From assembly GCF_009931435.1 (NCBI RefSeq), contig NZ_CP043414.1: a DNA stretch of 64,000 bases, one strand, 5' to 3'. Shown here piece by piece: positions 10,402-13,052 of this stretch (positions are counted from its first letter, which is position 1; the number at the start of each line of letters is the position of its first letter). Source of the DNA: Escherichia coli (GTDB taxonomy: Bacteria; Pseudomonadota; Gammaproteobacteria; Enterobacterales; Enterobacteriaceae). The notes beneath the pieces are model-generated. The model did not search any database, was not told the origin of the DNA, and was given only the letters and a program-made list of their open reading frames with translations. The position numbers and the translations under genes were made by a program.

Positions 10402-11640
10402 ATGGCTGACACTCGCCCTGAACGTCGCTTTACGCGTATTGATCGTCTCCCACCCTACGTTTTTAACATTACCGCTGAACTGAAAATGGCTGCGCGTCGG
10501 CGCGGCGAAGATATTATCGATTTCAGTATGGGTAACCCGGACGGTGCGACCCCGCCGCATATCGTCGAAAAATTATGTACGGTGGCCCAGCGACCGGACA
10601 CGCATGGTTATTCCACCTCGCGTGGTATTCCGCGGTTACGTCGCGCCATTTCCCGCTGGTATCAGGATCGTTACGACGTCGAGATCGACCCGGAATCAGA
10701 GGCTATCGTCACCATTGGCTCGAAAGAGGGGCTGGCGCATCTGATGCTGGCGACGCTGGATCACGGTGACACTGTACTGGTGCCTAATCCAAGCTACCCG
10801 ATTCATATTTACGGCGCGGTGATTGCCGGGGCGCAGGTACGCTCAGTGCCGCTGGTGGAAGGTGTCGATTTCTTCAACGAACTGGAACGCGCCATTCGCG
10901 AAAGTTATCCGAAACCGAAGATGATGATCCTCGGCTTCCCGTCGAACCCAACCGCGCAATGCGTGGAACTGGAATTCTTTGAGAAGGTTGTGGCGCTGGC
11001 GAAACGCTACGATGTGCTGGTGGTCCATGACCTGGCCTATGCCGATATCGTCTACGATGGCTGGAAAGCGCCGTCAATCATGCAGGTGCCAGGTGCACGC
11101 GATGTGGCGGTAGAGTTCTTTACGCTGTCGAAAAGCTACAACATGGCGGGCTGGCGTATCGGCTTTATGGTCGGTAACAAAACGCTGGTCAGCGCGTTGT
11201 CACGTATTAAAAGCTATCACGATTACGGCACCTTTACGCCGTTGCAGGTGGCGGCGATTGCGGCACTGGAGGGCGATCAACAGTGCGTGCGCGATATTGC
11301 CGAACAGTACAAACGCCGCCGTGATGTACTGGTTAAAGGGCTGCATGAAGCGGGCTGGATGGTCGAAATGCCGAAGGCTTCGATGTATGTCTGGGCGAAA
11401 ATCCCGGAACCATATGCGGCCATGGGCTCACTGGAATTTGCCAAGAAAATGCTTAACGAAGCGAAGGTCTGTGTCTCTCCAGGGATTGGCTTTGGCGACT
11501 ACGGCGACACCCATGTTCGCTTTGCGCTGATTGAAAACCGCGATCGTATTCGCCAGGCGATTCGTGGAATTAAAGCGATGTTCCGTGCCGACGGTTTACT
11601 ACCCGCCAGCAGCAAACATATTCACGAAAACGCGGAATAA
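10402..11640 (+). CDS. alaC: Glutamate-pyruvate aminotransferase (class I PLP aminotransferase)
   Basis: 412 aa; aminotransferase motifs (NPxNPTG-like [20 protein letters not shown] lysine region). Confidence 0.9.
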
Positions 11641-11660
11641 ACACCATCGTCAGAAATGCA

Positions 11661-11688
11661 AACAGGAGCCAGATGGCTCCTGTTTTTC
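11661..11688 (+). terminator. Rho-independent terminator downstream of alaC
   Basis: aacaggagcc-agat-ggctcctgtt hairpin followed by tttt, 20 nt after the alaC stop. Confidence 0.7.
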
Positions 11689-11704: not shown

Positions 11705-11776
11705 TTAGATCATCAGGGCAAAAGTACCGGCCCATACGATGACCATAAAAGAAATGCCCATAAAGAAATATTTCAC
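11705..11776 (-). CDS. ypdK: Small membrane protein (23 aa), not in the ORF track
   Basis: Minus-strand GTG-AAA-TAT-TTC-TTT-ATG... translates to MKYFFMGISFMVIVWAGTFALMI*; this matches my memory of the K-12 small protein YpdK at this position. Confidence 0.45.
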   Translation of the reverse strand: MKYFFMGISFMVIVWAGTFALMI

Positions 11777-12131
11777 TTTACATCTCTCCGCGTAATTACT
11801 GTTACGCCTGAATGACTTCATTACACCTGATACAGTGAGTTGACACCGGGCAAAACGACCTTAAAAGTCCTGCATTTTACCGTGGGCATCACCTCAGAAT
11901 TCTGAGCTAAACTGCTCGAGACGGCGCTAATGTACGCCTAAAACTGAAACGAGACAAGAGGCATTTTCTTATTTACTTTTAGTAACTTACAGGTGTCTCA
12001 TATCGGCGACAGTTTAATTTCTGACGGTAATAATTAGAGATTCAGCGAAGGAAAAAACCTTAAGAAAAAAGCCATAAAAACCATGAGGTTATTATGGCTG
12101 ATTTGAGGAGGGAAAGAGTAAGAGCAGTTTG

Positions 12132-13052
12132 TTAAATGTATAACGACGATTCACCCACCGGGCGCGTTTTAAAGCGACGGTGGATCCAGAGGTATTGCTC
12201 AGGTGCGCGCATAATCTCTTTCTCGATAATCTTGTTCATATAGGCAGCGGCTTGATTTTCATCTGCCGGGTAGCCTTCCATTTCAGGGGTGATGAACAAC
12301 CGATATCCGCTGTAATCCGTTTTTCTGACCATCGTTACGGTCAACATGGCTGCGCCAGAGAGACGAGAGAGGACATAGGTGCCATTGGTTGTGGCAACAT
12401 TTTCTACCGCAAAGAACGGTGCGAAGGAGCTACCTTTACGACCATAATCCTGATCGGGAGCAAACCATACGGCTTCACCTTTCTTCAGCGCACCGACAAT
12501 ACCGCGCAGATTATTTCTGCCGATCATCGCTTTGTTAGAGCGCATGCGACCACGGGTCTGCACCCATTCCATCAGCTGATTATTATGCGGACGATAGGTG
12601 GCCATCATTGGCTGACATAGTCCCATCACGCGGCCGCCTAATTCCAGCGACATAAAATGGACGCCGACAACCATCACGCCACGATTTTGCAGTTGTGCGC
12701 GTTTGAGGTTATCCAGCCCTTCAACATCAAACCATTTACGTACGCGACTGTCGGGCCAGAACCATGCCATGCCGGTTTCTACCAGCGCCATGCCGAGTGA
12801 ACGAAAGTTTTCGGCAATCATCTTCTCGCGCTCTTCAGCAGAATGCTGTGGGAAACAAAGTTCCAGGTTCTTACGGGCGATAGATTCACGACGTTTCAGG
12901 AATGGTCGCGCCATCGTGCCGATACGCGTGCCGAGAAAACAGAGAACAGGGTAAGGAAGCTGTACCCAAAGCCAGAGTACACCAAGCCCAAACCATGTGA
13001 GCCAGTAGCGAGGATGTAGAAACTCGCGGGAAAATTTGCATTTTGGAAACAT
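12132..13052 (-). CDS. lpxP: Lipid A palmitoleoyl-ACP acyltransferase
   Basis: LpxL/HtrB-family acyltransferase; start set to MFPKCKF (306 aa) rather than the 22-codon longer track ORF. Confidence 0.85.
   Translation of the reverse strand: MFPKCKFSREFLHPRYWLTWFGLGVLWLWVQLPYPVLCFLGTRIGTMARPFLKRRESIARKNLELCFPQHSAEEREKMIAENFRSLGMALVETGMAWFWPDSRVRKWFDVEGLDNLKRAQLQNRGVMVVGVHFMSLELGGRVMGLCQPMMATYRPHNNQLMEWVQTRGRMRSNKAMIGRNNLRGIVGALKKGEAVWFAPDQDYGRKGSSFAPFFAVENVATTNGTYVLSRLSGAAMLTVTMVRKTDYSGYRLFITPEMEGYPADENQAAAYMNKIIEKEIMRAPEQYLWIHRRFKTRPVGESSLYI

What the first reader, a model, noticed from the sequence alone, without database searches (positions are those of the whole stretch)
11705..11776. Small-protein gene ypdK missed by the 60-aa ORF cutoff
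A 23-codon minus-strand frame with a GTG start encodes a single-TM peptide between alaC and lpxP. It shows that the supplied ORF track omits real short genes, of which the 55-aa prophage ORF may be another example.
Basis: partly seen in the sequence, partly recalled or inferred. Interest (0 to 1): 0.2.

Follow-up and report, generated by a model that had tools for sequence, protein, structure and literature searches.

The report
Known small membrane-protein gene ypdK
The 23-codon frame is the already annotated E. coli gene ypdK, a conserved one-helix membrane peptide of unknown function, so the finding is correct but ordinary.

Summary
Confirmed and already known. Window 11705..11776 (minus strand) is a GTG-start, 23-codon ORF encoding VKYFFMGISFMVIVWAGTFALMI. 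The peptide is identical to K-12 ypdK (b4680) and RefSeq WP_010723117.1. It matches NCBIfam NF033437 (YpdK equivalog) at 57.5 bits against a cutoff of 30.

An ORF this short is expected by chance, so length proves nothing. Conservation does. I fetched 80 species loci through AlaC, spanning Escherichia to Pantoea and Erwinia. Of these, 77 carry an intact 23/24-codon ORF convergent to alaC. All start with GTG and all have a GGAG Shine-Dalgarno sequence. Variation shows codon periodicity (entropy 0.51/0.14/1.09), and pN/pS is 0.26 in frame against 1.2 and 2.2 in the shifted frames. The in-frame upstream ATG (38 aa) is cut off by stop codons in most genera.

ypdK looks like its own transcription unit. 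A terminator hairpin follows lpxP, a conserved promoter-like block sits about 146 nt upstream, a hairpin abuts the Shine-Dalgarno sequence, and a terminator hairpin is shared with alaC. Adjacency to lpxP is not conserved; adjacency to alaC is.

Function is unknown. The likeliest role is an inner-membrane helix that binds a larger membrane protein. Interest is low.

The parts
11705..11776 (-). ypdK coding sequence: GTG start at 11776..11774, 23 sense codons, TAA stop at 11707..11705; peptide (M)KYFFMGISFMVIVWAGTFALMI
   Evidence: Searches give the sequence and translation. It is identical to K-12 b4680 and WP_010723117.1. NCBIfam NF033437.1 scores 57.5 bits against a cutoff of 30. pN/pS is 0.26 in this frame against 1.2 and 2.2 in the shifted frames.
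11784..11789 (-). Shine-Dalgarno sequence GGAGAG, with 9 nt between GGAG and the GTG
   Evidence: Read. Every locus analysed for it has GGAG 6-10 nt before the GTG, and the spacer is 9 nt in 49 of 72 unique sequences.
11790..11807 (-). Leader hairpin GCGTAA-CAGTAA-TTACGC whose 3' arm ends exactly at the Shine-Dalgarno sequence
   Evidence: In 52 of 72 unique sequences the minimum-energy fold has a hairpin ending at the base before GGAG. In the anchored test, 5.45 of 6 positions pair, against about 4.0 for shifted anchors and shuffles. There are 39 distinct arm pairs with double compensatory changes such as GCGTAC/GTACGC, GCATAC/GTATGC and GCACAC/GTGTGC. Its function is inferred, not shown.
11660..11685 (.). 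Hairpin AAACAGGAGCC-ATCT-GGCTCCTGTTT between the convergent stop codons of ypdK and alaC; likely a shared two-way intrinsic terminator
   Evidence: It folds at -22.5 kcal/mol (z -3.9) on the minus strand and -20.3 kcal/mol (z -4.3) on the plus strand. The plus-strand copy is followed by UUUUUCAUU. The same hairpin follows alaC in L021.
11922..11985 (-). Promoter-like block for ypdK: A/T-rich tract 11961..11985, -35 TTGTCT 11957..11952, 17-nt spacer, -10 TACATT 11934..11929, discriminator AGCGCC 11928..11923, predicted +1 near 11922 (146-nt leader)
   Evidence: The block GCGTACATTAGCGCCGTCT (up to 4 mismatches) lies 75-166 nt upstream of ypdK in 61 of 78 species loci, including genera where lpxP is not the neighbour. 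A tiling-array transcript in K-12 starts 148 nt upstream of the ypdK start (PMC3009722 File S3). It scores 8 of 12 to the sigma-70 consensus, below the scan threshold. Its promoter role is inferred.
11893..11906 (-). 14-nt perfect palindrome CTCAGAATTCTGAG in the predicted leader (core CAGAATTCTG conserved)
   Evidence: The core is invariant in the nine-species alignment and visible in many of the context strings printed. It forms the tip of a local fold with modest energy, z -1.5. Its function is unknown.
12065..12099 (-). Intrinsic-terminator-like hairpin plus U-run just after the lpxP stop, separating lpxP from ypdK
   Evidence: It folds at -17.7 kcal/mol, z -5.6, with 0 of 200 shuffles as stable, and is followed by UUUUUU.

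Best explanation
This is ypdK, a real and already annotated protein-coding gene. It encodes a 23-residue, almost entirely hydrophobic peptide that starts from GTG. Shown here: the peptide is identical to the K-12 gene product. The ORF, its GTG start and its Shine-Dalgarno sequence are conserved across Enterobacteriaceae and Erwiniaceae, with the substitution pattern of a translated sequence. Its fixed neighbour is the convergent alaC gene, not lpxP. Inferred: it is transcribed on its own from a conserved promoter about 146 nt upstream, after an lpxP terminator. Its leader carries a conserved hairpin abutting the Shine-Dalgarno sequence. It ends at a hairpin shared with alaC. Inferred mechanism, about 40% likely: the peptide inserts as a single transmembrane helix in the inner membrane. 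The N-terminus with Lys2 would face the cytoplasm, and the C-terminus, which ends in Glu in 19 of 78 sequences compared, would face the periplasm. Through its invariant small and aromatic positions (G7, S9, W15, G17-T18-F19) it would pack against and modulate a larger membrane protein, as AcrZ, KdpF, CydX and MgtS do. The partner is unknown.
For: Identity: searches show the peptide identical to b4680 / WP_010723117.1. One search gives NCBIfam NF033437.1 YpdK equivalog at 57.5 bits against a cutoff of 30, over 1-23 of 23 positions. Searches find the locus in 5422 of 5426 complete E. coli genomes, single copy, and annotated ypdK in the listed rows. Coding: searches find intact 23/24-codon ORFs in 77 of 80 species loci, always starting with GTG and always preceded by GGAG. 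Entropy by codon position is 0.51/0.14/1.09. One search gives pN/pS 0.26 in frame against 1.22 and 2.20 in the shifted frames, and K2, Y3, M6, G7 and S9 are invariant. Translation and expression in K-12: the Ribo-seq supplement of PMC10746267 lists ypdK among 'previously known sORFs' with non-zero values. The tiling-array transcript overlaps ypdK. ypdK is one of the 18 small membrane proteins of Hemm et al. 2008, as quoted in PMC3009722. Transmembrane helix: TMHMM places it at residues 4-21 in Table S1 of PMC10470546. Own transcription unit.
Against: Nothing argues against the identity. Several points weaken the mechanistic part. No function or partner is published: the literature score is 0.12 in PMC9976479, and there is no PDB relative. 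TMHMM predicts N-out/C-in, the opposite of my charge-based orientation, and no experimental topology is listed. The promoter matches the sigma-70 consensus at only 8 of 12 positions and was missed by the scan. A -10-like CTATACT box that is conserved in other genera, about 55 nt upstream of the GTG, is degraded in Escherichia. The original Hemm papers could not be read here.
Confidence: 0.9

Rival explanations
1. The ORF is a chance frame. The conservation would reflect a non-coding element such as the alaC terminator region, a small RNA or a regulatory site, not a protein.
For: ORFs of this length are everywhere: 73 of at least 20 aa in 4.5 kb. The region does hold conserved RNA-like features, namely the hairpins.
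Against: Variation is concentrated at third codon positions, and pN/pS is 0.26 only in this frame. Start codon, Shine-Dalgarno sequence and length are kept in 77 species. No Rfam family matches there. The ORF is listed with Ribo-seq values in K-12.
Confidence: 0.02
2. The real product is the 38-aa protein that starts at the in-frame ATG at 11821 (MKSFRRNSNYAERCK + YpdK).
For: The 38-codon frame is open in this window, in K-12 and in two other E. coli loci, L001 and L003.
Against: In most other genera a stop codon lies in frame between that position and the GTG, as in 'YAER*K V'. The extension is not conserved. The ATG has only AGGTG two bases upstream, whereas the GTG has GGAGAG at 9 nt. The NCBIfam model covers only the 23 residues.
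Confidence: 0.03
3. YpdK is a type I toxin-like membrane-damaging peptide, like Ibs, TisB or DinQ, rather than a regulator of another protein.
For: It is very short and hydrophobic. A transcript overlapping it rises about 2-fold after UV (log2 +1.06).
Against: It is single copy. It keeps its position next to alaC across two bacterial families under purifying selection, which is unlike type I toxin loci as I know them. No antitoxin RNA family was found. The conserved upstream block I compared looks like rrnB P1; I did not search for a LexA box. Toxicity was not tested here.
Confidence: 0.05
4. YpdK works with its E. coli neighbour LpxP, the cold-induced lipid A palmitoleoyltransferase, in the way PmrR acts on LpxT.
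For: It lies on the same strand 355 nt downstream of lpxP in Escherichia, Citrobacter, Salmonella, Enterobacter, Lelliottia and Leclercia. Both products would be at the inner membrane.
Against: ypdK is kept next to alaC in the many genera where no lpxP lies beside it, such as Klebsiella, Kosakonia, Cedecea, Buttiauxella and Pantoea. A strong terminator hairpin follows lpxP, and the ypdK promoter block travels with ypdK, not with lpxP.
Confidence: 0.06

Closest known systems
E. coli K-12 YpdK (b4680, YP_002791250.1; RefSeq WP_010723117.1; NCBIfam NF033437)
   Same: The 23-aa peptide is identical. So are the GTG start, the Shine-Dalgarno sequence, the neighbours (alaC convergent, lpxP upstream) and the intergenic layout.
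   Different: One synonymous base differs (Val14 GTT->GTA, window 11735). None of 5422 complete E. coli genomes shares this exact 72-nt sequence. There are a few substitutions in the flanking non-coding DNA.
Single-helix small inner-membrane proteins that bind larger membrane proteins (AcrZ-AcrB, KdpF-KdpABC, CydX-CydAB, MgtS-MgtA); roles recalled from general knowledge, with names and sizes listed in Table S1 of PMC10470546
   Same: It falls in the same size class (under 50 aa) and has one predicted transmembrane helix. It has conserved small residues inside the helix, and it was found by the same comparative/RBS approach.
   Different: No partner, phenotype or topology is known for YpdK. It is not encoded in an operon with a candidate partner. 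It is shorter than all of these and has almost no extramembrane residues.
Type I toxin peptides (Ibs, TisB, DinQ, Hok)
   Same: It is a short hydrophobic helix. It was listed alongside them in the RseP substrate screen.
   Different: It is single copy, syntenic across families and under purifying selection, with no antitoxin RNA seen. It was not cleaved by RseP as an HA-MBP fusion.

Membership tests
YpdK (NCBIfam NF033437.1, equivalog) | Score above the curated cutoff over the full-length model | tested here: met
   57.5 bits against a cutoff of 30, residues 1-23 on profile positions 1-23 of 23
YpdK (NCBIfam NF033437.1, equivalog) | Sequence identity to the reference K-12 protein b4680 | tested here: met
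   23 of 23 residues identical
YpdK (NCBIfam NF033437.1, equivalog) | Orthologous position: convergent to and just downstream of alaC | tested here: met
   Same layout as K-12 and as 77 other species
YpdK (NCBIfam NF033437.1, equivalog) | The peptide is actually made | not testable with these tools
   There are only K-12 literature data: Hemm et al. 2008 as quoted in PMC3009722, and the Ribo-seq table of PMC10746267. Nothing exists for this strain.
Small single-pass inner-membrane proteins | One hydrophobic stretch long enough to span the membrane | tested here: met
   Residues 4-21, FFMGISFMVIVWAGTFAL, carry no charge. TMHMM calls this a transmembrane helix in Table S1 of PMC10470546.
Small single-pass inner-membrane proteins | Membrane localisation and defined topology | not testable with these tools
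   No experimental orientation is listed for YpdK in PMC10470546 Table S1
Small single-pass inner-membrane proteins | A defined larger partner protein | not testable with these tools
   There is no PDB chain and no conserved operon partner
Type I toxin-antitoxin peptides | Cognate antisense or overlapping antitoxin RNA | tested here: inconclusive
   No Rfam family matches at the locus. The only opposing transcript would be alaC read-through. Unannotated RNAs cannot be excluded.
Type I toxin-antitoxin peptides | Patchy, often multi-copy distribution | tested here: not met
   The median is one place per genome, in 5422 of 5426 E. coli genomes. The position is fixed across two families.

The most novel reading that the evidence does not exclude
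The gene is known, but its control region may not have been described. ypdK carries a family-wide conserved upstream block that resembles rrnB P1: an A/T-rich UP-like tract, the shared nonamer CCTCTTGTC at the -35, and a GCGCC discriminator. It also has a long leader of about 146 nt with a palindrome, a covarying hairpin that ends exactly at the Shine-Dalgarno sequence, and a GTG start and AAA second codon that never change in 78 species. The most novel reading is that YpdK is a growth-rate/ppGpp-coupled membrane micropeptide whose translation is set by this leader.
Probability: 0.2. Interest if true: 0.3.

Novelty: already known. Interest (0 to 1): 0.08.

Why it matters
It matters mainly as a calibration point. 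A fixed 60-aa ORF cutoff does drop a real, conserved gene, and conservation rather than ORF length is what identifies it. The comparative data add modest value. They fix the GTG start against the 38-aa alternative. They extend the range of ypdK to Erwiniaceae. They show that alaC, not lpxP, is the conserved neighbour. They also outline a conserved promoter and leader that could guide experiments on a protein that still has no known function.

Tried and rejected
- **Protein database search:** Structure prediction needs at least 30 aa, so I did not attempt it.
- **Family and structure libraries:** Pfam has no family. The PDB has no relative even at E <= 10.
- **Primary papers:** Hemm 2008, Hemm 2010, Fontaine 2011 and the EcoSal small-proteome review are not held. 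One PMC id that I recalled was a different paper.
- **Supplements:** the stalled-initiation Ribo-seq preprint and the Mg-starvation paper have no supplements held. The Salmonella small-protein census supplements do not mention ypdK.
- **Consensus scan:** the promoter/terminator scan flagged none of the elements I describe. Its only minus-strand 'terminator' lies inside the ORF and is probably chance.
- **RNAalifold:** it predicted no pairs on the 78-sequence MAFFT alignment of the leader, because loop lengths vary and the Erwiniaceae sequences do not align. I replaced it with a test anchored on the Shine-Dalgarno sequence, with shifted-anchor and shuffle controls.
- **Upstream 22/23-codon ORF (11821..11892):** rejected as a gene. 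The stretch between the conserved blocks varies in length, including a 20-nt deletion in Enterobacter soli, so it is not kept as a reading frame.
- **CTCTC box as an anti-Shine-Dalgarno sequence:** considered and dropped. By eye on the alignment, it does not covary with the GGAGAG/GGAGCG variants.

Full report
**1. The observation**

On the minus strand, window 11776..11705 reads GTG AAA TAT TTC TTT ATG GGC ATT TCT TTT ATG GTC ATC GTA TGG GCC GGT ACT TTT GCC CTG ATG ATC TAA. This is 23 sense codons plus a stop, encoding (M)KYFFMGISFMVIVWAGTFALMI. The ORF list shows alaC (10402..11640, +) on one side and lpxP (12132..13052, -) on the other.

Such an ORF is not remarkable in itself. The same list holds 73 ORFs of at least 20 aa in 4.5 kb. 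So the question is whether this one is a gene.

**2. Identity**

- A megablast of the 901 bases around it finds the locus in 5422 of 5426 complete E. coli genomes, single copy. The listed hits are annotated alaC | ypdK | lpxP.
- The K-12 MG1655 record annotates ypdK (b4680, YP_002791250.1) at 2496921-2496992 between lpxP and alaC. Its translation is identical to the window's. So is WP_010723117.1 in two other strains.
- The whole lpxP-alaC intergenic region aligns at 99% mean column identity with K-12. The only difference inside the ORF is synonymous: Val14 GTT->GTA, window 11735.
- NCBIfam NF033437.1 'YpdK', an equivalog model, matches at 57.5 bits against a cutoff of 30, over all 23 positions. 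Pfam has no family.
The finding stands.

**3. Is it more than a chance frame?**

I fetched the alaC locus from 80 species representatives, from Escherichia through Citrobacter, Salmonella, Klebsiella, Enterobacter, Kosakonia, Cedecea and Buttiauxella to Pantoea, Mixta and Erwinia. I then scanned each locus in six frames for the peptide.

- An intact 23- or 24-codon ORF lies convergent to alaC, a few tens of bases beyond its stop, in 77 loci.
- The three exceptions: L004 ends 53 nt after alaC. L021 has other DNA there. L073 has a 1-nt loss in a T-run, which is either a pseudogene or an assembly error.
- All 78 sequences, window included, start with GTG. All 72 unique upstream sequences checked have GGAG 6-10 nt upstream of it.
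- Among 69 unique nucleotide sequences, entropy by codon position is 0.51/0.14/1.09.
- Pooled pN/pS is 0.26 in the annotated frame, against 1.22 and 2.20 in the two shifted frames.
- K2, Y3, M6, G7 and S9 are invariant. W15, G17, T18, F19 and M22 are nearly so.

This is the signature of a translated, selected peptide.

The 38-codon frame from the upstream ATG (11821) is open only in the Escherichia sequences. In most other genera a stop lies in frame just before the GTG. So the annotated GTG start is right.

**4. Literature**

- ypdK is one of the 18 small membrane proteins reported by Hemm et al. 2008, as quoted in PMC3009722. I could not read the original.
- The PMC3009722 tiling-array study detected a K-12 transcript that starts 148 nt upstream of the ypdK start. 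It rises by log2 1.06 after UV.
- A Ribo-seq study lists ypdK among 'previously known sORFs' with non-zero values. In one acid-stress comparison the RNA rises (log2 1.55) without a rise in footprints.
- In an RseP substrate screen, YpdK is listed as 23 aa with a TMHMM helix at residues 4-21 and a predicted N-out/C-in orientation. No experimental topology is given, and no cleavage was seen as an HA-MBP fusion.
- A survey of understudied E. coli genes gives ypdK a literature score of 0.12.
- No PDB chain resembles it.
- The function is therefore unknown.

**5. Anatomy around the gene** (minus strand; these steps are inferred unless stated)

- **Terminator after lpxP.** A strong hairpin plus U-run follows the lpxP stop at 12099..12065 (-17.7 kcal/mol, z -5.6).
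- **Promoter-like block.** A conserved block lies 75-166 nt upstream of ypdK in 61 of 78 species, including genera where the upstream gene is not lpxP. In the window it reads: A/T-rich tract 11985..11961, TTGTCT 11957..11952, 17 nt, TACATT 11934..11929, AGCGCC, with a predicted start near 11922. That is within 2 nt of the tiling-array 5' end. Compared with rrnB P1 fetched from K-12, it shares an A/T-rich upstream tract, the nonamer CCTCTTGTC at the -35, and a GCGCC discriminator. That this implies growth-rate or stringent control is my inference from general knowledge of rrn P1 promoters.
- **Palindrome in the leader.** The predicted leader contains a perfect 14-nt palindrome, CTCAGAATTCTGAG, at 11906..11893, with a conserved core.
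- **Hairpin at the Shine-Dalgarno sequence.** A hairpin at 11807..11790 has its 3' arm ending at the base before GGAGAG (11789..11784). In 52 of 72 unique sequences the minimum-energy fold has such a hairpin at exactly that place. With the 3' arm anchored at the Shine-Dalgarno sequence, 5.45 of 6 positions pair, against about 4.0 for anchors shifted by 4-20 nt and for shuffles. There are 39 different arm pairs, many differing by double compensatory changes. The Erwiniaceae lack it. RNAalifold on the raw alignment found nothing, so this rests on my anchored test, which is not tree-aware.
- **Shared terminator.** Between the two convergent stop codons lies an 11-bp hairpin at 11685..11660, stable on both strands (z about -4). 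It is followed on the alaC strand by a U-run. It is probably a shared terminator.

**6. Neighbours**

An LpxP-like gene lies upstream of ypdK only in the Escherichia, Citrobacter, Salmonella, Enterobacter, Lelliottia and Leclercia loci. Elsewhere the upstream gene differs in size and orientation. The alaC-ypdK pair is the constant. This argues against a dedicated LpxP link. It fits ypdK being an independent unit held next to alaC by the very short shared terminator region.

**7. Mechanism**

The peptide has one charged side chain, Lys2, then 18-21 apolar residues. Nineteen of the 78 sequences compared add a C-terminal Glu, and a few add Lys or Asn.

By the positive-inside rule I infer an N-in/C-out single helix. 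This disagrees with the TMHMM call quoted above, and neither is tested. The invariant G7, S9 and G17-T18 positions, together with W15 and F19, suggest a helix-packing face.

The best-supported guess, at about 40%, is that YpdK binds and modulates a larger inner-membrane protein, as other E. coli small membrane proteins do. A type I toxin role is less likely, given the single copy, the fixed synteny and the purifying selection. It was not tested.

**8. Verdict**

The gene is already known and annotated, so the finding ranks low in interest. The only possibly new material is the conserved promoter and leader architecture and the invariant GTG. That is a modest lead, not a discovery.

Noticed in passing
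window 11922..11985 (-): The conserved block upstream of ypdK resembles rrnB P1: an A/T-rich tract, the shared nonamer CCTCTTGTC at the -35, and a GCGCC discriminator. It travels with ypdK in 61 of 78 species, even where lpxP is absent. Its predicted start is within 2 nt of a published tiling-array 5' end.
   Followed up: partly
window 11790..11807 (-): A hairpin ends exactly at the ypdK Shine-Dalgarno sequence. It is conserved in Enterobacteriaceae with many compensatory stem changes and is absent in the Pantoea/Erwinia loci. The TTCATT just upstream may pair with the GATGAA between the Shine-Dalgarno sequence and the GTG. I saw that second pairing by eye and did not test it.
   Followed up: partly
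window 11774..11776 and 11771..11773 (-): The GTG start and the AAA second codon are invariant in all 78 species, although synonymous sites elsewhere are close to saturation (pS 0.59). GTG never becomes ATG. This suggests selection on initiation strength or on local RNA sequence.
   Followed up: no
window 11828..11845 (-) and loci L005-L067: A CTCTCTATA(C/A)T box about 55 nt upstream of the GTG is conserved in most Enterobacteriaceae. It looks like a -10 element with an upstream C (CTATACT). In Escherichia it is degraded to CTCACTGTATC by a 1-nt loss. It may be a second promoter that is lost or weakened in E. coli.
   Followed up: no
window 11735: The window's ypdK has a synonymous GTA (Val14) that none of 5422 complete E. 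coli genomes shares; all differ by at least 1 nt in the 72 bases. The best 25-kb match is only 99.1% identical. The source is therefore a lineage not represented among the complete E. coli RefSeq genomes.
   Followed up: no
window 34856..38968: A 4.1-kb island lies next to tRNA-Arg(CCT) (38969..39043). It is absent from the closest genome overall but present in a few others. It holds torI, two hypothetical genes, a PACE efflux transporter, a LysR regulator, a frameshifted pyrophosphohydrolase fragment and a truncated intS, so it is a prophage remnant with cargo.
   Followed up: partly
It is annotated as hypothetical protein WP_000545725.1 in NZ_CP027579.1. I made no further test of whether it is a real gene.
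   Followed up: partly
window 61567..61833 (+): Three tandem copies of the Rfam family naRNA4 (RF02564), each about 81 bits, spaced 94 nt apart.
   Followed up: no
L021 3737..3895; L073 3798..3866: Citrobacter sp. Awk 4 has unrelated DNA with another terminator-like hairpin where ypdK should be. Candidatus Pantoea haifensis has a 1-nt loss in a T-run that breaks the ypdK frame.
   Followed up: partly
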